A stretch of DNA of 64,000 nucleotides from a virus, in the IMG/VR virus record IMGVR_UViG_3300030098_003955, one strand, 5' to 3'. Below, one piece after another: positions 384 to 41,828 of the stretch. The position numbers and the translations under genes were made by a program. Positions within the stretch are counted from its first letter, which is position 1. Every line of letters begins with the position of its first letter. The notes under the pieces are model-generated. The model ran no database searches and was not told where the DNA came from. It saw only the letters and a list, made by a program, of their open reading frames with translations.

Positions 384-959
384 ATGTCGAAGAAACACAC
401 CTTTGAAGACAATCAAGCGTTAGTATTTTATGCCCTTAATCTAGTTGGCTACCGTTGGCAAGATATTTGGACTCGTGAAGAGATGCAGTCTATCGCACTG
501 TTTGCCGGATGGAAAGCTATCGAGGACTACAACGCAAAAGACTACAAGCACGCATTGAGTACGCATGTAGTGAACCACGTTAAGTGGGCGTTGCTCAACG
601 AGTACAACCGTGGTGACCAAGCCAAAGTCCGAGCTATGGGACTTCACATCACAAGCGTCGAGTTCGACAACATCGACACCAAGCATACAAAACATGTGAT
701 TTACGATTCAGAGTCTAGACGTGACGACGACGAGCTAACATCAAAGCTCATTGTAGAGAATGAGAGAGTAAACGGTCGTCCAGTGTTTGACGGCCAAACA
801 ACCGCATCCGAGCTATTGCTACAACGCTACAATGGCCGGACGCTTCAAGACTTGGGTAATGAGTACGGCGTGAGTAGGGAGCGAGTCAGGCAGATAGTCG
901 CCAAAGCTGAACGTCGGCTAGAGCAAGCAATGAGACACACTAAACGGAGGTACGCATAA
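384..959 (+). CDS. sigma-70-like factor (divergent region 2, region-4 HTH)
   Basis: C-terminal RTLQDLGNEYGVSRERVRQIVAKA is a sigma region 4.2 motif; WKAIEDYN..LSTHVVNHVKWAL resembles region 2; GGAGG SD. Confidence 0.7.
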   Translation: MSKKHTFEDNQALVFYALNLVGYRWQDIWTREEMQSIALFAGWKAIEDYNAKDYKHALSTHVVNHVKWALLNEYNRGDQAKVRAMGLHITSVEFDNIDTKHTKHVIYDSESRRDDDELTSKLIVENERVNGRPVFDGQTTASELLLQRYNGRTLQDLGNEYGVSRERVRQIVAKAERRLEQAMRHTKRRYA

Positions 960-1369
960 TGAAGACCGCAACAAGGGAGAACCGAGAAATTGAAACCGAT
1001 AAACGAGTCCAAGTCTATTTTAACTTGCATCGCAAAGTATGGTCAGTCAGGCAAAATGGTTTGGTGGTTGCTCATGTCGATAGCATTGCCTTGAAAGACC
1101 CCAAGTATATCGTCGGTGCCGCAGGCAATAAGCGAGTCAGGAGCGAGAAGCGAAAGAACGTCCACGCCTACATCAGCGGCTATGTGCATGACCCGAAGAA
1201 GCTCAGCATATTCCCCGAGGACATCAAGCTGGTCACCTACAACCCGTACAAGCACGATTCGTTCGTCATTGAGGGTAGTGAGGAGCCGATCTATAGTTCC
1301 GAGTTCGTCCAGATGGACGTATTCAAGCAGAAGACGCACGTCGAAGCCTTGTGGTACTCAGTACCATAG
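959..1369 (+). CDS. conserved phage hypothetical protein
   Basis: VYFNLHRK..WSVR, RVRSEKRKNVHA, VTYNPYK motifs; TAATG coupling to upstream gene. Confidence 0.7.
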   Translation: MKTATRENREIETDKRVQVYFNLHRKVWSVRQNGLVVAHVDSIALKDPKYIVGAAGNKRVRSEKRKNVHAYISGYVHDPKKLSIFPEDIKLVTYNPYKHDSFVIEGSEEPIYSSEFVQMDVFKQKTHVEALWYSVP

Positions 1370-1571
1370 GGTAAGACGAGCGGCCTTGTGCGCCACGCTT
1401 GTATTACTACAACAAGGCCGCTTGCGGTGGGCGAGGGAGTGAGTCAGCAACCACTGACCGAGAGAAAAAAAGATTGGATTTTTCCTCAAGACCGCTATAC
1501 AGCCATGTCGATATAGAGTATATTAAGAGAGTTGCAAGTCGCAACGGTACACACTTTTTTAGGAGAATGAG

Positions 1572-2792
1572 ATGGACGGTTTAACGCCTATCGAAAACCA
1601 ACGGCGTGATGGTGACTTTGTTCACGCCACACAAACTATGGCTTCCAACGATGGATACCGTAATGTTTCAAAGTCATGGTTTGACAAGACCATTTCTTAT
1701 GACGAGGGATTCGAGTTGCTTGAGAATGATGTCGAGCAGCGCGAGGACTACCTAGTCGAAATGCGTGAGCTTCGGTTTGCCTCCGAGGATGGTAAGTTTG
1801 AAGTTGACTACAATGGCCGGAAGTTCACACCGACCGACCATGCTATCAGCCAAATGGCCGCTAACCTGTTAGACGGTCAAGGCACTGCCTTTATTCGTTA
1901 CCTGTCGAACGATTATGAAAAGGGCAACAAGAACATCACTCGTGATGGTCAGGACGCTGATGTTCTGCGACATATCCTACAGAATGGGAAACGTCGGATT
2001 GACCCGACCAAGAAAATGAAACTGCGGACGTACTCCGATGGTACTCTGCGGGCTTGGTTGTCTGACTCCTATTCTGAGGTTGATAACCGCTGGTATCTTG
2101 AGCAGGTCAAGAATATCATTCCAGTAGGTCGCCTATCTCACTGGCGAGGTGATGCCGATACGATTTGGGGTAACGTCCTCATTTCCGACACTATCCGCGA
2201 GGAGTTCGACTCCGAGTACGGTGGCATGGTATCTGTCTCAAATTGTGAGATTGGTAAACGTGCGTTGGGTTCATTGCCTAGCCTGTTCCGTGCAATCTGT
2301 ATGAATGGTTGTATCTGGGGTCAGGCATATGGCGAGAAAATCAAGGTAGTTCACCGAGGTGAAATCGACCTTGACCAACTCAAACTCAAACTGCGTGACA
2401 ATATTGAGAAGCAGATCAAGTTGATCCCTGACGGTATTGAGCGTATGTTGGGTATTCGCGCTATGGGTACGGATGGTGTTGCGATGAAGAATATCATTGC
2501 CGCCACTGCACAGAAAGAACGTATTGACCGTTCGGGTGCTTCCGCTATCCTTCAGGCTTGGGTTAAGGATGAATCCAAGATTGCTCCGGTTGAGCGTAGC
2601 TTGTTTGATGTTGTGAACAGCGTAACCCGCGCTGGTCAGACATTAACCAACCAACGCTGGGTGGACTTTGACAAATTGGGTGGTCGTATGTTAGAATACA
2701 CCGATGCCCAATGGGATTCTATCAAGACGGTTGCTAGCAACCTGACTGACAAGGATTTGAAGAAAGTCTACTCTAGCCAACTGGTCGCCTAA
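1572..2792 (+). CDS. DUF932-like phage/plasmid protein
   Basis: RAWLSDSY, VSNCEIGKRAL, LFRAICMNG, HRG motifs; AGGAG SD. Confidence 0.6.
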   Translation: MDGLTPIENQRRDGDFVHATQTMASNDGYRNVSKSWFDKTISYDEGFELLENDVEQREDYLVEMRELRFASEDGKFEVDYNGRKFTPTDHAISQMAANLLDGQGTAFIRYLSNDYEKGNKNITRDGQDADVLRHILQNGKRRIDPTKKMKLRTYSDGTLRAWLSDSYSEVDNRWYLEQVKNIIPVGRLSHWRGDADTIWGNVLISDTIREEFDSEYGGMVSVSNCEIGKRALGSLPSLFRAICMNGCIWGQAYGEKIKVVHRGEIDLDQLKLKLRDNIEKQIKLIPDGIERMLGIRAMGTDGVAMKNIIAATAQKERIDRSGASAILQAWVKDESKIAPVERSLFDVVNSVTRAGQTLTNQRWVDFDKLGGRMLEYTDAQWDSIKTVASNLTDKDLKKVYSSQLVA

Positions 2793-2923
2793 TGGAATGT
2801 ATTTACAGCCTGCTAAGCCTGTCAGTGCTGTTATTGTTCGTGAGCGGATTCCTCAAGGAGTTGGGTAAAATCAACTCTGAGGAGTCCACCTCACGGACAC
2901 TCCGGCGAAAGCGTTGGGGCTAG
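2792..2923 (+). CDS. small (43 aa) hydrophobic peptide with basic tail
   Basis: TAATG-coupled ORF MECIYSLLSLSVLLLFVSGFLKELG...RRKRWG; below ORF-track cutoff. Confidence 0.35.
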   Translation: MECIYSLLSLSVLLLFVSGFLKELGKINSEESTSRTLRRKRWG

Positions 2924-2930
2924 TACTGAG

Positions 2931-2957
2931 AAAGCCGTCCGAAAGGGCGGCTTTTTT
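2931..2957 (+). terminator. intrinsic terminator
   Basis: AAAGCCGTCC-GAAA-GGGCGGCTTT hairpin followed by a T-run. Confidence 0.85.
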
Positions 2958-3104
2958 CATGGAATAAGCCGAATAGGGGTTGACAAAGCGTAAGGTTCGC
3001 GTAGAACGGGCTGCGTATGCTTTGTCTCCGCCAAATCACGCAGCTCCGAGCAGGATGTCAAGTGACCGAGTGAAAGTTTAATGGGGAATTAGCGGCCTAT
3101 TTAC

Positions 3105-3126
3105 TTGACAGGATTTTTATAATGAG
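3105..3126 (+). promoter_or_regulatory. TTGACA-N7-TATA(A/C)TGA motif, copy 1
   Basis: ttgaca ggatttt tataatga; same spacing at 4921, 5334, 22054. Confidence 0.5.
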
Positions 3127-3130
3127 TATA

Positions 3131-4570
3131 CGGGAACACGGTGGAGATGGGTATCAGGGTCTGCTTGGTTCCGGCAGTACACTCTGGGTATCACACGAGT
3201 CGTTGGCCGTATTGTAGAGAATAAGCATGTTCGTCTGGGTTTCATTTAATAACGGCTTATTATGTGTATTGAGGCAGCAGGTCGTATTCGGGTTTCACTA
3301 TCTCGTTGGCTGCGAGTAGGTATAGGTAAGACGGAGCGCCGACTAGCAACGATGTCCGAGTGAGTTAGTGAGTTAGCAAACTGACCTTGGGTAGCATTTA
3401 TAACGTGGCTAATCACTAATTCTTTGTAATAAGCAAGACTTTATGGGCGTCACGCATTTTACGGCTTTTATCTTGCGTTTAAGGCACCGACATGCTGGGT
3501 ATCAGGGGTTCGATGGCCTATTGTGTAAGTTAAGGCAGCGTATTCATGGGTCTCATTTCACATATGGCCTATTATGTACGATTAGGTAATCCGAGCTACT
3601 GGCTAGCATTTGCCGCTAGTGAGTCAGTGAGTTATTAAAATAAAGGCAACAGGGGTCTGGTTATCATTCGAGTCTCTGGCCTGTTATGTATTGGGAGGGC
3701 AGTACAAATCTGGGTAACACCGCATTGATGGCCTTTGGGTATTAGGGACAGGCAAGCTTGGCTCGGGTGTCATCTTTAAGGCGGCCTGTTGTGTATTGGG
3801 AGGGCACGGAAAAGGTGGATAGCATTTAATAAATGGCCTCTCCTATTAAGAGCAATTACAGGACGGATAACAATCTGTAAGTGGCTCTCTTATTGTATGT
3901 AATAAAGACAGCAGTTAAACCCGGTTTACATTCGCAGTCGGCTGTCTTGTTGTATTGGTAGGCAGATGATGTATGGGTATCACATTACGGACGGCCTATG
4001 CTGTATTGTGAGCTGCATTTGTATGCCGGTCTTCATTTGCCAAGTGGCAACTCATTGTATGTAAAGCACATCGTCAAGCAGATCGACGGGTATCATCACC
4101 TCTGAGGACGATGCGCTTATTGTATGTAATAAGCATAGAGTGTCTGGGTAGCAACGACTTGATGGCTCATTAATTGTATGTGATAAGCATAATGATCTGG
4201 GTTCCATACACGATGGCGGCTTATCGTATGTATTAAGCGGGGCACGTTTACATCGGTACACACATGTAGCATGACCCCGCAAGGTTAATGGTAAGCGTTA
4301 AAAACGGTTAGTTGTACTCCAGATTTCAGTGCTTACACCAACCTAAGTTTATTTATTGACCAGCACGTTCTAGTTGGATTTCACTGAATCTACGGCTGGT
4401 TCTTGTTGTTTCGATCAGGCACTTTCCGATGGGTTCCAAATGTGAGCGGCCTATACATCGTTATAAAGCTGGTAAGTACAAAGTGCAATACCCTAAATGA
4501 AGTTTTTTTATATTATCATAAGATGAATCAGAATTCTCTGGGCTTCACTATGATGTGGACTCATCTTATG
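3131..4570 (-). ncRNA. TIGR-like stem-loop guide-RNA array, about 23 dual-spacer units
   Basis: Repeating + strand grammar stem-GCA-N8-10-YGGGTATCA-like-N8-10-YGGC-stem', i.e. - strand GCCR-spacerA-TGATACCCR-spacerB-TGC; each unit is closed by its own variable stem; A-C mismatches on + become G-U pairs on -. Confidence 0.88.
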
Positions 4571-4920
4571 GAATAAGCATTGTACAAGTGATTGGCTTTT
4601 GTTTACTACACTCAATAACATCAACTCCCTAATCCCCTTATTATAATATCACTGAGTTAAGACAAGATATTAGACGCTCGCGTCTGTCTCCCTGCCGCCC
4701 AGCCCAGCCTAGCATAGAATTTATTGCCGCACAAGCACTAAAAACAAAAAATGTGCTGAATATTTCTGCCCATTACATAGCATATGGATCAATACGAATC
4801 GTACTTACACGGCTTTTGGGTCGTAATCCCACTTATTTACAGCAATAACGCAGTGTTTTGGGCGTATATTCCGAGAATTGTGTACGCACCACTTTCATTT
4901 TCAGATAGATAAATAACCTA

Positions 4921-4942
4921 TTGACACGCTTTATATACTGAT
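4921..4942 (+). promoter_or_regulatory. TTGACA-N7-TATACTGAT motif, copy 2
   Basis: Intergenic, upstream of ORF 4976. Confidence 0.55.
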
Positions 4943-4975
4943 GGTGTCTGTATATGGTTTATATATAGATGTTTA

Positions 4976-5329
4976 TTGTATGTATTTGTACATATGGATT
5001 TATTGATTGCTTATATTGGGAGATGTGTTTTGAATACTCCAAGTAGTATGATTGACAAGAAAAAGATAGAAACCGAGAGAAAAACGTATAATTGTTACCT
5101 TTTCTATAATCACATGGATCATCACTACATAATTGAGGTTTTTGACAACACATGGGTGGATGAAAACACGCAATTAGACGATCTTATTAGTGTGGATAGG
5201 TATCCCAGTAATGCCAGTGAGGAAGCAGCGAGTGTCTTTGAATGTATGGAAAGGTACTTGATGGAGCAGACTCCAGAGGTTACAGATGAGGATATGGATA
5301 CAGAAGATATGGACTGGTTGGAAGACTAG
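4976..5329 (+). CDS. hypothetical protein, acidic C-terminus (true start may be ATG 5048)
   Basis: ORF track. Confidence 0.5.
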   Translation: MYVFVHMDLLIAYIGRCVLNTPSSMIDKKKIETERKTYNCYLFYNHMDHHYIIEVFDNTWVDENTQLDDLISVDRYPSNASEEAASVFECMERYLMEQTPEVTDEDMDTEDMDWLED

Positions 5330-5333
5330 GGTC

Positions 5334-5355
5334 TTGACAAGGTTTGTATACTGAT
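5334..5355 (+). promoter_or_regulatory. TTGACA-N7-TATACTGAT motif, copy 3
   Basis: Intergenic, upstream of glycosylase-like gene. Confidence 0.55.
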
Positions 5356-5409
5356 ATGACGACTGCCATATAAAAATTGAAGCCCAGTACCCCTATGCAG
5401 GAGAATCAG

Positions 5410-6525: not shown

Positions 6526-8646
6526 GTGAAGTTACACAACGAAAACAACGACGTAGTACGCTCATCACAGTTTGAGCAATCAGATTTTACCATTGAGTCA
6601 TCCGCTAAGGCATTTCAGATATTGTCCAGTGGCTTGTACTCAGACAAGATTCTGGCAGTCATTCGTGAGTTATCTACAAATGCTTACGATTCACATGTGG
6701 ACATTGCCAATGAGGCTAAGCCATTTGAAGTCCACATGCCCACCAAGTTGGATACAAAGTTTTCAATACGGGACTTTGGCACTGGGCTTTCTCATGACGA
6801 CTGTATGAACTTGTACACCACATACTTTGGTAGTACCAAGACAGATAGCAATGAGGTTGTTGGTTGTCTGGGTCTAGGTAGTAAGTCACCATTCGCATAC
6901 ACAGATGCCTTCAATGTTTCTTCATTCCACAATGGCAAGCTCCGTGTTTACACAGCATACAAGAATGAGGACAATACACCAGCATTTGCATTAATCAGTG
7001 AGTCAGATACTGATGAGCCAAATGGTATGCTTATTACCCTAAACGTAGAGAGTCAGGATGTTGGTGAGTTCAAGGAAAAAGCTGAGAAGGTTTACAAATA
7101 CTTCAAGGTCAAGCCAATATTCAATATCGACATGGACATTGAGCAGGACTCATATGCTGTTGTAGGTAGCTCTTGGGGTGTTCCTACTGTAAACAGAGTT
7201 AATAGGATCTCTCGTAGGAGAGAACCAGTAGCTGTAATGGGTCAGTTGTCCTATCCTATTAATTCAGAGCATTTTGATGGCAAGTACGAAGACATGCTAT
7301 GTTCAGATATAGTCTTGCACTTTGACATCGGTGAGTTAGCTATGGATGCTAGTCGTGAGAAGCTAGAGTACACCAAGCAAACCAAGCAGGCTATTCAGCA
7401 ATCTCTGGATTTCGTGAAAGAAGAATTGCATGAACAGCTAGATACAATGTTTGACCATTGTGATTCTCTATACGAAGCCAGAGTAAAGTTTCATCGTATG
7501 AAGGGTGGCTCTAATTTCTACCATAACTTTGGTATTCAAGATTCAACGCCGAAGTGGAAAGGGCAAGACCTTTTTGAAGATGGGTTCCAGTCGCTAGAAG
7601 TAGTTCAAGGAAGTATGGTGGTAGACCTATTCCGTAAGGACAGATGGGCGCGTGGGATTAGTCGAACCGGAACATCAAGAATAAACTTTGACCCTCAACG
7701 AGATACACAAATTGTATACGATGACCTGAAGCGTGGAGGGGTTGGTAGAACCAAGAACTTCTTTGCTAGCAATGTGCCAGAAGACAGGTATCAAGATTCT
7801 CGTTTTGCGACATATCTATTTCGATCATGTGAGTTACAGGAAGTCATTGATTTTCTAGGATGTAATCCAGAGGATATAATCCTTACTTCGAGCCTACCCA
7901 AAGTGGCATCGGCGAGTGGAAGCTCTGTATCAGGCTCCTCCAGAACGAACACTTGCTACTGGGAAAAGAGCGATTGGGTTGATACCTCTGTAGATATGTC
8001 TCAAGGTGGTTATTACGTTGAGATAAACAGATACGAAGTTTGCAGTGATCGTGGAGGCCAGATGGGTTTTCACAACAATGTCGATAAGTTGTTGGATGCA
8101 CTTAAAGAAGTAGGATTTGAGTTACCAGAAGGACAAAAAGTCTACGGTTTCAAAACTTCTAAACTGAAGCAGAAGAGATTCAACAAGGATGGTAACTGGA
8201 CAAATCTAGTTGACATCATCAAGGATGTTGTCGAGTCATGCGAGTGGTATCAAGAGTCATACGCATTTTCAAAAGCTGTTAGCAACATGGGAGGATATGC
8301 TAATGCCTCTGAGTTTGCAAGCCTGATTAAACTTGCTCAACAATCAGATGTTCCTCAAGATTATCAGAAGTTTGCTGATGAGATACTGACAGCACAACCA
8401 GAGGACAAGATACGAGCCATCAGGGTCTTACAATCATTTGCCAAAAAATGGGCAATGACTTTAGATCACGATGACGATATAGAGCTTTACTTTGAATGGA
8501 TCAAAGACCAGAAAGACTCTTTGATTGAGAAGTACCCACTTCTTGATTGTGTGACATTCCCAAGAGATTTTTGGGAAAAAGAAGAGAGACAGGCAAGGTA
8601 TGATTCCATTGCAGAATACTTACGACTTATAGACAGTAGCAAATAG
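6526..8646 (+). CDS. rIIA: rIIA-like protein (N-terminal GHKL/HSP90-like ATPase)
   Basis: LSSGLYSDK..IRELSTNAYDSH, RDFGTG, STK..SN..GCLGLGSKSPFAY motifs; adjacent rIIB. Confidence 0.85.
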   Translation: MKLHNENNDVVRSSQFEQSDFTIESSAKAFQILSSGLYSDKILAVIRELSTNAYDSHVDIANEAKPFEVHMPTKLDTKFSIRDFGTGLSHDDCMNLYTTYFGSTKTDSNEVVGCLGLGSKSPFAYTDAFNVSSFHNGKLRVYTAYKNEDNTPAFALISESDTDEPNGMLITLNVESQDVGEFKEKAEKVYKYFKVKPIFNIDMDIEQDSYAVVGSSWGVPTVNRVNRISRRREPVAVMGQLSYPINSEHFDGKYEDMLCSDIVLHFDIGELAMDASREKLEYTKQTKQAIQQSLDFVKEELHEQLDTMFDHCDSLYEARVKFHRMKGGSNFYHNFGIQDSTPKWKGQDLFEDGFQSLEVVQGSMVVDLFRKDRWARGISRTGTSRINFDPQRDTQIVYDDLKRGGVGRTKNFFASNVPEDRYQDSRFATYLFRSCELQEVIDFLGCNPEDIILTSSLPKVASASGSSVSGSSRTNTCYWEKSDWVDTSVDMSQGGYYVEINRYEVCSDRGGQMGFHNNVDKLLDALKEVGFELPEGQKVYGFKTSKLKQKRFNKDGNWTNLVDIIKDVVESCEWYQESYAFSKAVSNMGGYANASEFASLIKLAQQSDVPQDYQKFADEILTAQPEDKIRAIRVLQSFAKKWAMTLDHDDDIELYFEWIKDQKDSLIEKYPLLDCVTFPRDFWEKEERQARYDSIAEYLRLIDSSK

Positions 8647-17292: not shown

Positions 17293-17321
17293 ACTTTGGA
17301 TTACACGCAGATCAGGCGTTT
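17282..17321 (-). ncRNA. single TIGR-like unit overlapping the tasR stop codon
   Basis: + strand AAACGCA-gtagactt-TGGATTACA-cgcagatc-AGGCGTTT; 6-bp closing stem. Confidence 0.7.
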
Positions 17322-17348
17322 CAAAACATTTTACAAGGACGTATAACA

Positions 17349-17558
17349 ATGTCAAACCCAAATATTGAATGGGACAGTGGCAAAGAGATGTTTATCGCTT
17401 GGGACGAAGCGTGTATGCCGATTGGCTACTATGACACGAGAGAAGAGGCAGAGCGTGAGTTTGAGGAATACTGCGCTCACCTCTTTCCTCCGTCAGAATA
17501 TCCAGAAATGCACAAGGGAAAATCAGATGTACGGAATGATAGCGATAGGTCTGACTAG
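17349..17558 (+). CDS. hypothetical protein
   Basis: AAGGA SD; WDE...G.YDTREEAE motif. Confidence 0.55.
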   Translation: MSNPNIEWDSGKEMFIAWDEACMPIGYYDTREEAEREFEEYCAHLFPPSEYPEMHKGKSDVRNDSDRSD

Positions 17559-17694
17559 CTTTTTGTACTTAATTGCATGTTGTTCATGCTTAAAGCAGAA
17601 AGACTACCCACACGCATTGATGTGGCTTTCGTACTCCACAGCCAACTTAGGCTTACTTTGGTTTGAATATAATAAGGTGAATGGTACTCAATGA
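17527..17694 (+). CDS. small membrane protein
   Basis: Two hydrophobic segments, W.SY..AN.GL. Confidence 0.55.
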   Translation: MYGMIAIGLTSFLYLIACCSCLKQKDYPHALMWLSYSTANLGLLWFEYNKVNGTQ

Positions 17695-18131
17695 GAGTTG
17701 CGGCAATATCAGGGTTCTTTAACCCACTACACATAGGCCATATAGACTACATATCTTCAGCCAGAAACATCGCAGACTACCTCATTGTAATAGTCAATAG
17801 CGACCGACAGGTTGAGATTAAAGGCTCAGTGCCTTTCATGAACCAAGATGAGCGACTAAAGATAGTAAGCAACATCAAAGGTGTCAGTAGAGCCGTCATC
17901 TCAATAGATGAAGACGGGACTGTATGCGAAACGCTAAGGCAAGAGTTTAAGAGACTTGAAAATGACCCATTCTTTGAAGAGATGGTGTTTTGTAATGGTG
18001 GCGACAGGAAAGAAGGAGGAGTCCCTGAAGACGTGTTGACCAGTGAGCTAGGTATGCGTATGGTTTACAATGTAGGTGGTGGCAAAACACAATCCTCAAG
18101 TTCGCTAATACAAAAGGCCGCAAACAAATGA
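17691..18131 (+). CDS. cytidylyltransferase-like (HIGH) protein
   Basis: SGFFNPLHIGH, NGGDR, GGGKTQSSS. Confidence 0.85.
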   Translation: MRVAAISGFFNPLHIGHIDYISSARNIADYLIVIVNSDRQVEIKGSVPFMNQDERLKIVSNIKGVSRAVISIDEDGTVCETLRQEFKRLENDPFFEEMVFCNGGDRKEGGVPEDVLTSELGMRMVYNVGGGKTQSSSSLIQKAANK

Positions 18132-18248
18132 ACGCTATCTATGCCGGACTAACCGCATGGGCAATCGAGCTAGGAATAGCTTTAACTATTTTGATGGTAC
18201 TTAGATCGGAAGAACAAAAGGTCTACCGAAGGAGACAGAAGAAAAAAC

Positions 18249-18650
18249 TTGAAGATGAAGAATTACGTGGCGATATTCAATGACGGCAACCTTACTCTTA
18301 AAGACTTCAAGCTAGAGTGCCGTGATGAGGGATGGTTGCCAATATGTGCATCCAGAAGTCTTCATGACAACTCGATTTCAATACCAGTATTCTCCTCAGA
18401 AGAAACCGCTCACAAATTCCTTTGCAGAAATTTTGATACAAAAAAATACGTTTGTGGCTTGATAAAATTATCAGATGATGATATTTTAGAAATGTCAAAC
18501 AGGGGTGTCTCTATCGAACGACTAAGTTTTGCTAAAAAGATCAGAGGACACAAAGACTTCGAGTTAGACGTATTTGTTTTTGAAGTGGATGAAAAACCAG
18601 AGTTAGATTCATATGGGAAAATTTTTGATGAACGTACAAGAGCATTTTAA
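18249..18650 (+). CDS. hypothetical protein
   Basis: ORF track. Confidence 0.55.
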   Translation: MKMKNYVAIFNDGNLTLKDFKLECRDEGWLPICASRSLHDNSISIPVFSSEETAHKFLCRNFDTKKYVCGLIKLSDDDILEMSNRGVSIERLSFAKKIRGHKDFELDVFVFEVDEKPELDSYGKIFDERTRAF

Positions 18651-18750
18651 GAAGATGTTAGTCACGATTGGTTGGTTTTCTACAGGAGCTTTGATTGCTA
18701 CAATCTCTTGCTGTCTGTATGAGTTTTTGATCGACGTGCTGGCTGGTTAA

Positions 18751-19059
18751 ATGAATTACACATACAAAGCAAAGTTAGTTCGTTGCGTTGATGGCGACAC
18801 GATGGATGTAGACGTTGATCTAGGGTTTCACTTAACTGCTAGAATCAGATGCAGGCTTCTTGGAGTCAATACTCCAGAACGAGGTAGACCAGACTTTGCA
18901 AGAGCTACACTCATGTTAGAAAATCTATTGCAGTCACAAGCAGACGAAGAAGGATTCTTCGTGATGAGGACAGGCAAGACTGGCAAGTTTGGAAGATGGC
19001 TTGCTGAAGTGAATGGAGTCAATTCAGTTTTGAAAGAACGGTGGCCTTATGAAAATTAA
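18751..19059 (+). CDS. SNase/thermonuclease-like protein
   Basis: RCVDGDT.DV.VDLGF, RLLGVNTPE, GKFGRWL. Confidence 0.8.
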   Translation: MNYTYKAKLVRCVDGDTMDVDVDLGFHLTARIRCRLLGVNTPERGRPDFARATLMLENLLQSQADEEGFFVMRTGKTGKFGRWLAEVNGVNSVLKERWPYEN

Positions 19060-21129: not shown

Positions 21130-21162
21130 CAGGATGCCTCGCAAGGGGCATCCTGTTTTTTT
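21130..21162 (+). terminator. intrinsic terminator
   Basis: CAGGATGCCTC-GCAA-GGGGCATCCTG followed by T7. Confidence 0.85.
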
Positions 21163-21380
21163 ATGCCAAAACAAAATGAAGCCCATTAGCGTAGTTGCAT
21201 TCATGTCTTCTTATAATAAAAAAGATCGCAAGAAAAAGAAAAAAGAACTTCTCAGGCGAGAGAAAGCGGCTAGAAAAAGCCGATATACAAAGAGGATGAA
21301 TAGAGAAGAGAAGTTCTACGAAAAAGTACAACACATGAGCAGGCAGAGAGTCACGCCTATCAGAAAAGAGCAGGAAGAAG

Positions 21381-21626: not shown

Positions 21627-21698
21627 GGCCTGATAGTTAAACGGATATAACAACGGTCTTCTAAACCGTAGTTCGAGGTTCGATTCCTCGTCGGGCTA
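21627..21698 (+). tRNA. tRNA-Arg (TCT)
   Basis: GGCCTGA/TCGGGCT acceptor, ACGGT-CTTCTAA-ACCGT anticodon arm, GTTCGATTC T-loop. Confidence 0.92.
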
Positions 21699-21701
21699 CT
21701 T

Positions 21702-21809
21702 TAAGTTCGTGCTACACTAAAAATGATACCCACTCGAATAGTGCGCGGCTTATGTATATAATGATTACTGCCATACGGAACGTGAAAACCATTAACCTCC
21801 TTGCAGTAA
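21702..21809 (+). ncRNA. two TIGR-like units directly downstream of tRNA-Arg
   Basis: GCTA-cactaaaaa-TGATACCCA-ctcgaatag-TGC and TTACTGCCA-tacggaacg-TGAAAACCA-ttaacctcct-TGCAGTAA, each with a closing stem. Confidence 0.85.
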
Positions 21810-39386: not shown

Positions 39387-41828
39387 ATGAGTTCAGATAT
39401 TAAAGTTAAGAAGAGAAATGGCAGGCTTGAAGATGTCAATCTCGACAAGATAAATAAGTGTGTTGAAAGAGCCTGCGAAGGGCTAGATTCTGTAAACCCA
39501 AGCGAAGTCGTGCTTGACGCAAGCCTTCAGCTATATAACAAGATAACAACGTCAGACATAGACAAAGCGCTGATTATGTCTGCTCGCTCAAAAATAGAGC
39601 AAGAGCCTAACTATAGCTACGTTGCCTCTAGACTTTTGCTCAACAGCCTCTACAAAGAAACATTCGGCAAGAGCGTTAACGGTGATTTCGATCCAGAGTA
39701 TAGAAGTCATTTCATTAAGACCATCAAGCATCTTGTAAAAACAGAGAAGCTTTCGGAAAGATTGCTTGAATACGATCTACAGCTTCTGGCCGACAAGCTT
39801 GTCCCAGAGCGAGACGATTTGTTTAAGTACCTTGGCATACAGACTCTTTACGATCGCTACTTCATTCATGAAGAAGGTAGAAGGATGGAGAACCCTCAAT
39901 CTTTCTACATGAGAGTTGCGATGGGTCTTTGCTTGGAAGAAGAGGACAAAGAAGAAAGAGCTGTTGAAATCTACAACATGATGTCTGAGTTTAGATACTC
40001 TCCATCTACTCCAACGCTTTTTAACAGTGGAACCATTCACTCACAGTTGTCGTCTTGCTATCTGAGTACTGTACATGACTCAATAGACGGTATCTTTGGG
40101 ACAATACACAACCAAGCAAGACTTTCTAAATACGCTGGCGGTCTTGGCGTGGACTGGACTCCAACACGATCTACAGGTTCTTATATTAAAGGAACTAATG
40201 GCCAGTCTTCAGGGCTTATACCTTGGCTTAAAATATTTAATGATACGCTTGTAGGTGTGAATCAAGGAGGTAAACGAAAAGGCGCAGGATGTGCCTACCT
40301 AGAAGTATGGCATCTCGATGTAGAAGACTTTCTAGACCTGAGAAAAAATACTGGAGATGATCGCAGGCGATGTCATGATATGAACACAGCCCTTTGGATT
40401 TGCGACGACTTCATGAAGGCCGCGCAGAAAGATAAAGATTGGTACTTATTTGACCCATCAGAGTTTCCACTACTGCACGAAACCTATGGAAACCAGTTTT
40501 CAAAAGAGTACAGAAAAGCCGTAAGGCTTGCTGAATCAGGGAGTGTTAAGAACTTTCGTGTAGTTTCTGCAAAAGACCTATGGAAAAAGATGCTCAAGTC
40601 GTTGTATGAAACAGGGCATCCTTGGGTAACTTTTAAAGATCCTTCCAACATCAGATACAGTAATAGGCATGAGGGCGTAGTTCATTCGTCAAACCTTTGT
40701 ACTGAGATATTGCTACACACCAAGCCTACAACTTATAAAGATGGCGAAGTCGAAGAAGTTGGAGAGACAGCGGTTTGCAACTTGGCTAGTATCAATCTAG
40801 AGAACCACGTTAAGGTTCGCTCGATTGACTGGAAAAAATTACAGCAAACAATAGAAGTAGCAGTCCGTGGTCTGGACAATGTTATTGACATAAATTTCTA
40901 CCCAACCAAAGAAGCCCAAAACTCAAACTTGAGAAACAGACCTGTTGGCCTCGGAGTAATGGGAACTCATGGCCTACTGCACAAACTCAAGATCAATTAC
41001 GATTCGCAAGAAGCAATTGATATGTGCAACAAAATTCAAGAGTTTGTTTCTTATCATGCAATATTAACCTCGTCCAAGCTAGCAAAGGAAAGAGGTCATT
41101 ATGAAAGCTATATGCACTCATCGTGGAGTTACAATAATCTGCCAATAGATACGTATTGTACACTCATGAACTCTAGAAAGAGTACTGACTCATATAAGCC
41201 AAAGGACTTCGAGACTCTTGAATGGGACAAGGTAAGAGACCATATAGCAGAGCATGGGATGAGAAATTCAAATGTGATGGCTATAGCTCCTACGGCTACC
41301 ATATCTTACATTCAGGGGTGCTCTCAATCTATTGAGCCAGACTATTCAGTGCTGTTCGTTTATTCGACCCTTAGCGGCGAGTTTACAATGATAAATGAGC
41401 ACTTTGTAGACATGGCTAAGAAGAAAGGCATTTGGTGCAAGGAACTTGTGGAAGCTCTTAAAGCCGCTGACGGAGATGTTATGGCTATAGACTTGCCAGA
41501 AGAAATACAGAACCAGTTCAAAACTGCGTTTGATGTCAGTGCGGAGGTGCTGATTGAAGCAGCTGCGGCTAGGCAGAGATGGATTGACATGGGACAATCT
41601 TTCAATCTTTACAACAAAGGTACTAGCCTTAAATATCTAAATGATATATACATGAAGTGTTATGAAGACGGTCTTAAGACTACCTACTACCTAAGAAGCA
41701 AGGCGGCAACTAGACTAGAAAAGTCTACAGTTAGCTCCACTAGTGAGGAGTCTCAAGAAGTGCCAGAAGACTTGAGTCAAGTTAAGGCTTGCTCTATTAA
41801 TGATCCAGATTGTGAGAGTTGTCAGTAA
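39387..41828 (+). CDS. nrdA: ribonucleotide reductase class Ia alpha subunit with ATP cone
   Basis: VKKRNG ATP cone, TPTLFN, SSCY, SNLCTEI, APTATIS, C-terminal CESCQ. Confidence 0.95.
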   Translation: MSSDIKVKKRNGRLEDVNLDKINKCVERACEGLDSVNPSEVVLDASLQLYNKITTSDIDKALIMSARSKIEQEPNYSYVASRLLLNSLYKETFGKSVNGDFDPEYRSHFIKTIKHLVKTEKLSERLLEYDLQLLADKLVPERDDLFKYLGIQTLYDRYFIHEEGRRMENPQSFYMRVAMGLCLEEEDKEERAVEIYNMMSEFRYSPSTPTLFNSGTIHSQLSSCYLSTVHDSIDGIFGTIHNQARLSKYAGGLGVDWTPTRSTGSYIKGTNGQSSGLIPWLKIFNDTLVGVNQGGKRKGAGCAYLEVWHLDVEDFLDLRKNTGDDRRRCHDMNTALWICDDFMKAAQKDKDWYLFDPSEFPLLHETYGNQFSKEYRKAVRLAESGSVKNFRVVSAKDLWKKMLKSLYETGHPWVTFKDPSNIRYSNRHEGVVHSSNLCTEILLHTKPTTYKDGEVEEVGETAVCNLASINLENHVKVRSIDWKKLQQTIEVAVRGLDNVIDINFYPTKEAQNSNLRNRPVGLGVMGTHGLLHKLKINYDSQEAIDMCNKIQEFVSYHAILTSSKLAKERGHYESYMHSSWSYNNLPIDTYCTLMNSRKSTDSYKPKDFETLEWDKVRDHIAEHGMRNSNVMAIAPTATISYIQGCSQSIEPDYSVLFVYSTLSGEFTMINEHFVDMAKKKGIWCKELVEALKAADGDVMAIDLPEEIQNQFKTAFDVSAEVLIEAAAARQRWIDMGQSFNLYNKGTSLKYLNDIYMKCYEDGLKTTYYLRSKAATRLEKSTVSSTSEESQEVPEDLSQVKACSINDPDCESCQ

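What the first reader, a model, noticed from the sequence alone, without database searches (positions are those of the whole stretch)
3131..4570. About 23-unit stem-loop dual-spacer (TIGR-like) guide RNA array on the antisense strand
SEEN: the ORF-free region parses into about 23 units. On + each reads stem-GCA-[8-10 nt variable]-YGGNNNNCA (most often TGGGTATCA)-[8-10 nt variable]-YGGC-stem'. Examples: 3274 GCAGCA ggtcgtatt CGGGTTTCA ctatctcgt TGGCTGC; 3482 AGGCA ccgacatgc TGGGTATCA ggggttcga TGGCCT; 3748 ACAGGCA agcttggct CGGGTGTCA tctttaagg CGGCCTGT; 3959 TAGGCA gatgatgta TGGGTATCA cattacgga CGGCCTA; 4359 ACCAGCA cgttctagt TGGATTTCA ctgaatcta CGGCTGGT. The flanking stems differ between units but keep base pairing, so structure rather than sequence is conserved. 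KNOWN: on - this reads CCA-N9-TGATACCCA-N9-TG, the box C/D-like grammar of tigRNAs in TIGR-Tas systems, where two ~9-nt spacers recognise opposite DNA strands. INFERENCE: a large phage guide repertoire, probably aimed at competing phages, mobile elements or the host, which CRISPR finders would miss.
Basis: partly seen in the sequence, partly recalled or inferred. Interest (0 to 1): 0.96.

Follow-up and report, generated by a model that had tools for sequence, protein, structure and literature searches.

The report
Phage TIGR guide-RNA array, remote TasR
A marine phage carries 23 tandem two-part guide RNAs of the TIGR-Tas family described in 2025, encoded 12 kb from their nuclease gene and on the opposite strand; the kind of system is known, but related phage strains show the guide segments being rewritten while their scaffolds stay fixed.

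Summary
Between 3133 and 4570 the minus strand carries 23 tandem units (22 canonical, 1 degenerate). Each reads stem, CCR, 8-10 nt, UGNNNNCCR, 8-10 nt, UG, stem'. The stems differ between units but covary.

The interpretation also holds. This is a stem-loop TIGR array (Faure 2025; Xu 2026). The ORF at 16321-17292 is a TasR: E 8e-38 to TaTasR (PDB 9MTY), TM 0.74/0.81. Its four RuvC acidic residues are intact and it has no C-terminal tail.

Four lines support minus-strand RNA: motif polarity, a relative (L004) with a co-oriented promoter-driven array beside tasR, G·U against A·C wobbles (9:1), and a leader promoter conserved across lineages. Transcription itself is not shown.

Likely extra units lie on the plus strand at 5360-5403, 21706-21749 and 21765-21809.

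The array is 11.7 kb from tasR. Six other tasR lineages have no unit within the 1-6.6 kb of flank their contigs hold.

Against a sister strain, spacers are 73% identical. Neutral fourfold sites are 85% and stems plus linkers 94%. Changes are bimodal, and other lineages show the same.

No targets were found. This scan has noted TIGR arrays 53 times on other DNA. Verdict: new member of a known kind, with moderately interesting extras.

The parts
3133..4570 (-). Main stem-loop TIGR array of 23 units. Plus-strand coordinates of the units: 4517-4570, 4416-4453, 4359-4400, 4237-4280, 4182-4225, 4127-4172, ~4069-4113 (degenerate: box C reads CCU and one spacer side is a base longer), 4009-4054, 3959-3998, 3905-3948, 3848-3889, 3803-3838, 3748-3789, 3698-3733, 3644-3682, 3533-3570, 3482-3519, 3431-3467, 3373-3412, 3274-3313, 3220-3261, 3172-3209, 3133-3172. 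Short linkers carry a conserved AAUACA(Y)AA motif.
4571..4700 (-). Leader with a candidate promoter (TTGTCT, 14 nt, TATAAT, then GGGGATTAGGGAG). It is homologous to the leader TTGCAA-N14-TGnTATTTT-GGGATGGGAGG found before the first unit in at least 8 other lineages.
   Evidence: The promoter scan tool did not flag it, so this is read by eye and supported by conservation.
16321..17292 (+). tasR, 323 aa: RuvC (D7, E39, D77, D80), coiled coil, then a Nop/IS110-C-like RNA-binding domain. The protein ends 4 residues after the last helix, so it has no C-terminal tail and no room for the Y/H processing loop.
5360..5403 (+). Solitary unit in the 5' UTR of the denV-like gene, between the promoter-like site at 5334 and the RBS. 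It is conserved in L071, and 6 of the 9 differences over 101 nt fall in its spacers and loop.
   Evidence: (23.1 bits, E 0.007)
21706..21809 (+). Two units (21706-21749 and 21765-21809) starting 7 nt after tRNA-Arg (21627-21699). Loops are TGATACCCA and TGAAAACCA. The first has box C CUA and G·U pairs on the plus strand.
   Evidence: (13.9 and 20.3 bits)
21160..21203 (+). Weak possible unit just after a plus-strand terminator.
   Evidence: (12 bits, E 3.3)
17281..17322 (-). Weak possible unit overlapping the tasR stop codon: 6-bp stem, loop TGTAATCCA, box C CCU.
   Evidence: (17.2 bits, E 0.18)
3573..3632 (-). First insert inside the array, starting AACTCACTGACTCACT and holding a loop-like TGCTAGCCA. 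One mismatch against L071. Function unknown.
3318..3378 (-). Second insert of the same type (AACTCACTAACTCACT ... TGCTAGTCG). Nearly identical in L071. Function unknown.
4281..4358 (-). Strong conserved hairpin between units with a non-canonical interior. Either a decayed unit or another element.
   Evidence: (-18.3 kcal/mol, z -3.0)

Best explanation
This is a TIGR-Tas system of the stem-loop class in a large marine phage. The minus strand of 3133-4570 is most likely transcribed from a leader promoter near 4630-4665 into a precursor. Cuts in the conserved AAUACA-type linkers, probably by a host RNase, would release about 40-55-nt hairpin tigRNAs. Each tigRNA has a unit-specific stem closed by the box C/box D C-G pair, two 8-10-nt spacers, and a 9-nt UG-N4-CCR loop. 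A dimer of the TasR encoded at 16321-17292 would bind one tigRNA, one protomer on the stem-side boxes and one on the loop. The two spacers would pair with opposite strands of an 18-bp site reading spacerA + revcomp(spacerB). Because the RuvC acidic tetrad is intact, both strands are probably cut. A few extra guides are made from plus-strand transcripts, behind tRNA-Arg and in one 5' UTR. Shown here: the array anatomy, stem covariation, TasR homology and fold, conservation of the active-site residues, strand polarity by four indirect tests, and fast spacer turnover. Inferred: transcription, processing, binding, cleavage, and the biological aim. I take the aim to be conflict with other mobile elements or attack on host DNA.
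For: Grammar and enrichment: (14 matches against 0.18 expected). Stem covariation: (42 cells changed on both sides against 14.1 +/- 4.0 in shuffles, 0/500). TasR: Pfam PF02371 above its cut-off; PDB 9MTY_A at E 8.1e-38 over residues 17-336 of the 340-aa ORF; AF2 model at pLDDT 89.5 with Foldseek top hit 9MTY, TM 0.74/0.81. D7, E39, D77 and D80 are invariant or nearly so in 19 relatives, and D7 aligns with TaTasR D11, whose D11A mutant is dead. The short C-terminus fits stem-loop-binding Tas proteins. Strand: the U-(G-N4-C)-CA loop and A-rich tetraloop match TaTasR. In relative L004 a 7-unit array in this polarity lies 37 nt upstream of tasR on the same strand, behind TTTACT-16-TATAAT. G·U against A·C inside stems is 9 to 1 over 110 distinct units. 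A sense-strand leader promoter is conserved in at least 8 lineages, and a terminator follows the last unit in L001, L085 and L076. Function under selection: stems plus linkers are 94% identical to strain L071, against 85% at fourfold sites.
Against: The window's own leader has a 14-nt spacing between the -35-like and -10 hexamers and was not flagged by the promoter scan. No clear minus-strand terminator follows the last unit in this lineage. A conserved plus-strand promoter-like site at 3105 points into the array from its 3' end. The array is 11.7 kb from tasR, so the pairing of protein and array rests on motif match and co-occurrence in relatives, not on adjacency. No natural target was found.
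Confidence: 0.85

Rival explanations
1. The system is real, but this TasR works as a guide-directed DNA binder or transcriptional repressor of phage or host genes, like the characterised stem-loop TasRs PateTasR and CsTasR, and does not cut.
For: Both stem-loop TasRs tested so far are catalytically dead repressors (Xu 2026). One unit sits in a 5' UTR and overlaps an RBS.
Against: The dead TasRs have substitutions at the catalytic positions. Here all four acidic residues are kept across the clade, and the closest solved relative is the active nuclease TaTasR. No self-target was found in 64 kb of the phage.
Confidence: 0.15
2. The array is transcribed from the plus strand, driven by the conserved promoter-like TTGACA...TATAATGA at 3105. 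The functional RNA would then read CA-N9-UGG, or the plus-strand transcript is an antisense regulator of the guides.
For: The motif TTGACA-N8-ATA(C/A)TGA at 3105 recurs before plus-strand genes at 4921, 5334 and 22054 and is conserved in L071. Every called gene in the window is on the plus strand.
Against: This polarity does not match the TaTasR box geometry. L004 has the CCA...UG polarity co-directional with tasR and a promoter. The G·U asymmetry is 9:1 for the other strand. The leader promoter and terminator lie on the minus strand in relatives. Plus-strand units elsewhere in the window carry the same CCA...UG polarity. An antisense transcript alongside the guides is not excluded.
Confidence: 0.07
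3. The array is a decaying relic, or a structured RNA unrelated to TasR, and the fast change in the variable segments is only relaxed constraint.
For: Three units are missing or decayed in L071 (3396, 3452, 3719) and two units are extra there; the array also holds degenerate remnants. No targets were found.
Against: Stems, boxes and linkers are more conserved than neutral sites (5.6% against 15% divergence, P 4e-8). Spacers diverge faster than neutral sites (27% against 15%, P 6e-6) and bimodally, which relaxed constraint alone does not produce. The arrays are maintained in many lineages with an intact tasR.
Confidence: 0.04

Closest known systems
Stem-loop TIGR-Tas systems (Faure et al. 2025, Science, PMC12045711, section on stem-loop arrays; Xu et al. 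2026, bioRxiv 10.64898/2026.09.09.750476: PlTasA, PateTasR, CsTasR, BlTasA)
   Same: Tandem units with two 8-12-nt spacers, each preceded by box C and followed by box D. Variable palindromic stems replace the edge repeats. The loop is 9 nt. The Tas protein lacks the C-terminal Y/H processing loop. Guides occur at flexible positions, including inside or beside genes. Mostly viral hosts.
   Different: The characterised stem-loop TasRs are nuclease-dead and use CUU/UG boxes. This one keeps the RuvC tetrad and uses CCR/UG boxes like TaTasR. The main array is 11.7 kb from tasR on the opposite strand, with 23 units. Xu 2026 reports that stem-loop loci typically hold fewer units per system than dual-repeat loci. 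Linkers carry AAUACA, and no CUU boundary motif is evident.
Dual-repeat TIGR-TasR, TaTasR (PDB 9MTY)
   Same: Closest solved protein: 32% identity, TM 0.74/0.81. Same D/E/D/D RuvC residues. Same UG...CCA boxes with a G-C closing pair and an A-rich tetraloop in the 9-nt loop repeat. Spacers of 9 nt.
   Different: There is no conserved edge repeat; each unit has its own 3-13-bp stem plus a linker. Units are about 53 nt, not 36 nt. The roughly 35-residue C-terminal tail of TaTasR is absent. Faure 2025 already described arrays with a conserved loop plus variable stems as a possible intermediate between the two architectures.
IS110-family bridge RNA recombinases (IS621, PDB 8WT6/8WT9)
   Same: RuvC-like domain plus a PF02371 domain. 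The guide RNA has two internal loops that read DNA. These are the next-best structural matches (TM about 0.54).
   Different: The IS110 elements have a single bridge RNA per element, where this locus has an array. Identity is only 14%. No transposon ends or donor/target loop pairs were seen.
CRISPR arrays
   Same: A tandem array of short variable guides processed from one precursor. The variable parts turn over between strains.
   Different: There is no conserved direct repeat and no Cas homologue among the nine window proteins scanned. Each unit has two 9-nt guides that read opposite DNA strands. Change happens in place within old units, whereas CRISPR adds new units at the leader end.

Membership tests
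TIGR-Tas (stem-loop class) | A Tas protein with the Nop-like / IS110-C-terminal RNA-binding domain | tested here: met
   PF02371 at 26.2 bits, cut-off 21.3. Full-length match to TaTasR 9MTY_A, E 8.1e-38. Foldseek top hit 9MTY, TM 0.74/0.81.
TIGR-Tas (stem-loop class) | Tandem units, each with two 8-12-nt spacers preceded by box C and followed by box D | tested here: met
   23 units with CCR-N8-10-UG-N4-CCR-N8-10-UG. The strict form occurs 14 times against 0.18 expected.
TIGR-Tas (stem-loop class) | Variable but consistently palindromic flanks in place of edge repeats | tested here: met
   Seven-pair stem model: 84% of cells paired, 6 of 7 pairs with changes on both sides, 0/500 shuffles reach the observed values, and slid controls give 30-55% pairing.
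TIGR-Tas (stem-loop class) | The Tas protein lacks the C-terminal Y/H tigRNA-processing loop | tested here: met
   The protein ends 4 residues after the final helix. The alignment to TaTasR stops at residue 296 of 331. The rule is stated in Xu 2026.
TIGR-Tas (stem-loop class) | Array next to the tas gene (usual, but described as flexible) | tested here: not met
   The main array is 11,751 bp upstream on the opposite strand. Only one weak unit touches tasR. The feature is met in relative L004, where the array lies 37 nt upstream on the same strand. Six other lineages have no unit within the 1-6.6 kb of flank their contigs hold.
TIGR-Tas (stem-loop class) | Array transcribed and processed into discrete tigRNAs bound by Tas | not testable with these tools
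Only indirect strand evidence is available.
TIGR-Tas (stem-loop class) | The two spacers read opposite strands of one DNA target | not testable with these tools
   No natural target above chance in the window, in 1.17 Mb of related loci, or in two scans of viral contigs.
TasR subfamily with active nuclease | The four conserved acidic RuvC residues, including the equivalent of TaTasR D11 | tested here: met
   D77 and D80 are invariant, and D7 and E39 at least 90% conserved, in 20 sequences. D7 aligns with D11. Activity itself was not tested.
Dual-repeat TIGR arrays | Two alternating conserved repeats (edge and loop) and 36-nt units | tested here: not met
   The loop is conserved (UGNNNNCCR), but there is no edge repeat. 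Stems differ in sequence and length, and the period is about 53 nt.
Box C/D sRNA | RUGAUGA/CUGA boxes forming k-turns, with L7Ae, Nop5 and fibrillarin partners | tested here: not met
   No Rfam family matches the region at E up to 1. The boxes here are CCR/UG. Partner genes were not searched for.
CRISPR | Conserved direct repeats of 25-36 nt with single spacers, plus cas genes | tested here: not met
   Tandem Repeats Finder finds no array. No Cas family appears among the nine window proteins scanned.

The most novel reading that the evidence does not exclude
In this phage family TIGR spacers are rewritten in place. Single 9-nt spacers, or both spacers of a unit, are replaced wholesale inside unchanged stems, boxes and linkers, faster than neutral sites diverge. 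This would point to a dedicated or targeted spacer-renewal process (or very strong diversifying selection combined with recombination at the conserved loop). It would be comparative evidence bearing on the question, called open in Faure 2025 and Xu 2026, of how TIGR arrays obtain new spacers. In addition, arrays that lie kilobases from tasR on the other strand may explain some Tas loci reported as lacking arrays.
Probability: 0.35. Interest if true: 0.85.

Novelty: new member of a known kind. Interest (0 to 1): 0.55.

Why it matters
As a TIGR-Tas locus it is one more example of a system published in 2025. Three features make it more useful than an average example.

1. It pairs TaTasR-like boxes and an apparently intact RuvC nuclease with stem-loop guides. 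The stem-loop TasRs characterised so far are nuclease-dead, so this clade is a candidate for an active stem-loop-guided DNA cutter of 323 aa.

2. The effector and its main array are 11.7 kb apart on opposite strands, with further guides behind a tRNA and in a 5' UTR. Searches confined to tas neighbourhoods would miss arrays like this one. This may explain some loci reported as arrayless.

3. Several near-identical strains are available. They show scaffolds under purifying selection and spacers changing faster than neutral sites, in an all-or-nothing way. This makes the open question of TIGR spacer origin approachable with metagenomic population data.

Tried and rejected
- Rfam scan of 2500-5200 at E up to 1: only a sub-threshold BjrC1505 hit outside the array.
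- Tandem Repeats Finder: only an 18-nt microrepeat.
- Whole genome: none is held. Megablast of 15000-19000 against phages: no match.
- The search for related loci with TasR in viral contigs: no relative found.
- The DUF932 neighbour in viral contigs gave 55 loci, but none carried units, with default filters on all 55 or with filters off on eight of them. The array is therefore not a general companion of that gene.
- Self-targeting: spacerA + rc(spacerB) and rc(A) + B, gaps 0-2, up to 3 mismatches, in the 64-kb window. The counts equal those for shuffled spacers.
- The same search with the window's spacers over 675 kb of loci, and with 101 distinct spacer pairs from all arrays over 1.17 Mb: no enrichment.
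- Exact scans of IMG/VR for the predicted targets of two strain-conserved units. One gave 16 hits; 10 of them belong to a single GC-rich (58-61% GC) homologous family at a gene start, unlike this phage's AT-richer DNA, and the rest look like chance. The other gave 0 hits. With 18-nt targets, searches of very large databases are uninformative, so the genome-contig scan was not spent.
- T7-like promoter idea for the AACTCACTNACTCACT inserts: the motif occurs only inside the array of this lineage, and no RNA polymerase gene was recognised among the ORFs I examined. Left unexplained.
- The sigma-70 promoter scan did not flag the window's leader or L001's leader and terminator. Those were read by eye and supported by conservation across lineages.

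Full report
**1. The observation**

The region 3131-4570 has no ORF of 60 aa or more except one spurious 76-aa frame. Read on the minus strand, it resolves into tandem units of this form: 5' stem, C-CR, 8-10 nt, UG-NNNN-CCR, 8-10 nt, U-G, 3' stem.

- The strict 9/9 form of the grammar occurs 14 times in the 64-kb window against 0.18 expected. Thirteen of these lie in the array.
- In an alignment of 22 units, the box and loop anchor bases are invariant.
- The seven stem pairs covary. 84% of cells are paired, and 42 cells differ on both sides against 14.1 +/- 4.0 in shuffles (0 of 500). Pairing drops to 30-55% when the 3' partner is slid.
- The units were parsed by choosing the spacer lengths that maximise stem pairing, which favours the structure somewhat. 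The slide control and the later model hits in unrelated loci show the signal is real.

**2. The protein**

The ORF 16270-17292 most likely starts at the ATG at 16321 (MKVYAVDW), giving 323 aa.

- It passes the Pfam cut-off for PF02371.
- It matches the TIGR-TasR of PDB 9MTY over nearly its whole length at E 8.1e-38.
- An AlphaFold model built on 20 relatives has pLDDT 89.5. Its best structural match is 9MTY, with TM 0.74/0.81. IS621 recombinases and TasH follow.
- D7, E39, D77 and D80 are invariant or nearly so across the clade. D7 aligns with TaTasR D11, whose D11A mutant is inactive.
- The protein stops four residues after its last helix, while TaTasR continues for about 35 more residues. 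Xu et al. [quoted passage not shown]

**3. Comparison with the literature**

Faure et al. 2025 define box C as CCA, just 5' of each spacer, and box D as UG, just 3' of it. The G of box D pairs with the first C of box C, and the TasR loop repeat has an A-rich tetraloop.

The minus-strand reading here is exactly U-(G-AUAC-C)-CA for the loop, with the same C-G pair closing each stem.

[quoted passage not shown] This architecture is therefore already described.

**4. Which strand is the RNA**

No RNA data were available. Four indirect tests agree on the minus strand.

- (a) Motif polarity matches TaTasR, as described above.
- (b) In relative L004 (TasR 59% identical), seven units of the same polarity lie between a TTTACT-16-TATAAT promoter and the tasR start codon, on the tasR strand.
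- (c) Over 110 distinct units from the window and its relatives, wobble positions inside stems are G·U on this strand 9 times and A·C once (P 0.02).
- (d) At least eight lineages carry a conserved TTGCAA-N14-TGnTATTTT promoter followed by GGGATGGGAGG just upstream of the first unit on this strand. L001, L085 and L076 have a T-rich terminator hairpin just after the last unit.

The window's own leader is a homologous but less canonical version: TTGTCT, 14 nt, TATAAT, then GGGGATTAGGGAG. It has no obvious terminator before the bidirectional hairpin at 2935-2958.

A conserved plus-strand promoter-like site at 3105 points into the array. Antisense transcription therefore cannot be excluded.

**5. 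More units and locus layout**

I built a covariance model from the 22 units and ran it without filters over the window. It recovered 21 of the 22 training units at E up to 0.0015; the last, the 3' terminal unit, came back only as a partial hit (12.7 bits, E 2.3). It also found:

- a plus-strand unit at 5360-5403 (23 bits);
- plus-strand units at 21765-21809 (20 bits) and 21706-21749 (14 bits), directly behind tRNA-Arg;
- weak candidates at 21160-21203 (plus strand) and 17281-17322 (minus strand, across the tasR stop codon).

The 5' UTR unit is conserved in strain L071. Six of the nine differences over 101 nt fall in its spacers and loop. Relatives also have a plus-strand unit immediately before the RBS of a small gene.

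The main array is 11,751 bp from tasR. In L001 and L007 the array is syntenic, downstream of a DUF932-like gene on the opposite strand, and lies 4-8 kb from tasR. In six further tasR lineages there is no unit within the 1-6.6 kb of flank that their contigs hold. Remote arrays are thus the rule in this clade, and L004-L006 are the exception.

**6. Turnover of the spacers**

A metagenome scan with the neighbouring DUF932-like protein found near-identical strains. L071 is 97% identical in that protein and has a collinear array. Identities to the window, from a global alignment:

| Feature | Identity to L071 |
|---|---|
| Stems | 96% |
| Linkers | 93% |
| Loop | 86% |
| Flanking non-coding DNA | 85% |
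| Fourfold-degenerate sites of seven flanking genes | 85% |
| Spacer B | 73% |
| Spacer A | 72% |

- Spacers diverge faster than fourfold sites (odds ratio 2.1, P 6e-6).
- Stems plus linkers diverge more slowly than fourfold sites (P 4e-8).
- The spread is bimodal. Of 40 spacers, 12 are unchanged and 10 differ at five or more positions. The variance is 0.077 against 0.022 expected, and 0 of 20,000 simulations reach it.
- Strains L070 and L068 add third alleles and A/B mosaics within one unit.
- The same pattern appears in other lineages: L076 against L093, and L087 against L131 and L092. There, 29 nt of flanking context differ at 0-2 positions while spacers differ at 6-9 of 9. Those pairs were chosen for conserved context, so only the shape of their spacer distribution counts as evidence.

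Both TIGR papers state that how spacers are acquired is unknown. These strain comparisons bear on that question. They do not show a mechanism.

**7. Targets**

From the reported cut positions and the 8-nt 3' overhangs, the target should read spacerA + revcomp(spacerB) on one strand. This geometry is my derivation.

I searched both possible arrangements with gaps of 0-2.

- Nothing exceeded the shuffled controls in the window, in 675 kb of related loci, or in 1.17 Mb of loci using 101 spacer pairs.
- Two exact scans of IMG/VR gave chance-level results.

The host is unknown and no whole genome is held.

**8. Verdict**

This is a genuine TIGR-Tas system of the stem-loop class, a kind already published and met 53 times on other DNA in this scan. 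I class it as a new member of a known kind.

Four features stand out: an apparently active TasR paired with stem-loop guides, a large remote antisense array with dispersed extra guides, conserved non-unit inserts inside the array, and in-place spacer hypervariability.

Noticed in passing
window 2975-3050 (plus strand); L001 about 5190-5270; L085: A promoter-like TTGACA-16-TAGAAC is followed by a hairpin, GCTGCGT / 21-nt loop / ACGCAGC. In L001 and L085 the loop (TTTGTCT.CGCCAAATC) is kept and the stem is changed compensatorily to GCGGCCT / AGGCCGC. It may be a small structured RNA or a regulatory site between the DUF932-like gene and the array.
   Followed up: partly
window 3318-3378 and 3573-3632 (minus strand): Two about 60-nt inserts inside the array begin AACTCACT(A/G)ACTCACT and hold a loop-like TGCTAG(C/T)C(A/G) with no stem or boxes. 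They are almost identical in strain L071, more conserved than any unit. The motif occurs nowhere else in the window or in other lineages.
   Followed up: partly
window 4281-4358 (minus strand): A strong 14-bp hairpin (-18.3 kcal/mol, z -3.0) with a 34-nt non-canonical interior lies between two units and is conserved in L071. It is either a decayed unit or a separate element.
   Followed up: partly
window 3105, 4921, 5334, 22054 (plus strand): A recurrent motif TTGACA-N8-ATA(C/A)TGA lies ahead of plus-strand genes, and one copy points into the 3' end of the array. The spacing does not fit a standard -35/-10 pair, so it may be a phage-specific promoter or operator.
   Followed up: no
window 384-2792; L001 1909-5010; L007 1-831 and 9273-9773: A sigma-70 region-4/Mor-like gene, a mycobacteriophage L5 gp82-like gene and a DUF932-like gene sit just upstream of the array. 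The DUF932-like gene keeps this position in more than 20 metagenomic lineages that carry arrays, but relatives without arrays also exist.
   Followed up: partly
L085 about 7567-7640, L087 about 8004, L100 about 4934, L123 about 8007, L128 about 8073 (plus strand): In several relatives a single sense-strand unit lies directly before the RBS and ATG of a small conserved ORF. This mirrors the 5' UTR unit at window 5360-5403, so a guide embedded in an mRNA leader looks like a family trait.
   Followed up: no
L066-L070 contig ends: Several metagenomic contigs of near-identical strains end inside or just before the array. This fits assembly breaks caused by strain-level spacer variation.
   Followed up: no
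L146-L161: The predicted target of the strain-conserved unit at 3848-3889 matches, with a 2-nt gap, the first codons of a gene in ten homologous viral contigs of 58-61% GC. I judged it chance, because it is one family and its GC content is far from this phage's AT-richer DNA.
   Followed up: partly
window 39387-41828 and the rest of the window: The window is a gene-dense, all-plus-strand region of a large phage. It carries class Ia ribonucleotide reductase (48% identical to those of Acinetobacter and Pseudomonas phages), two tRNAs (Glu at 14340, Arg at 21627), a phosphomannomutase-like gene and a denV-like glycosylase.
   Followed up: no
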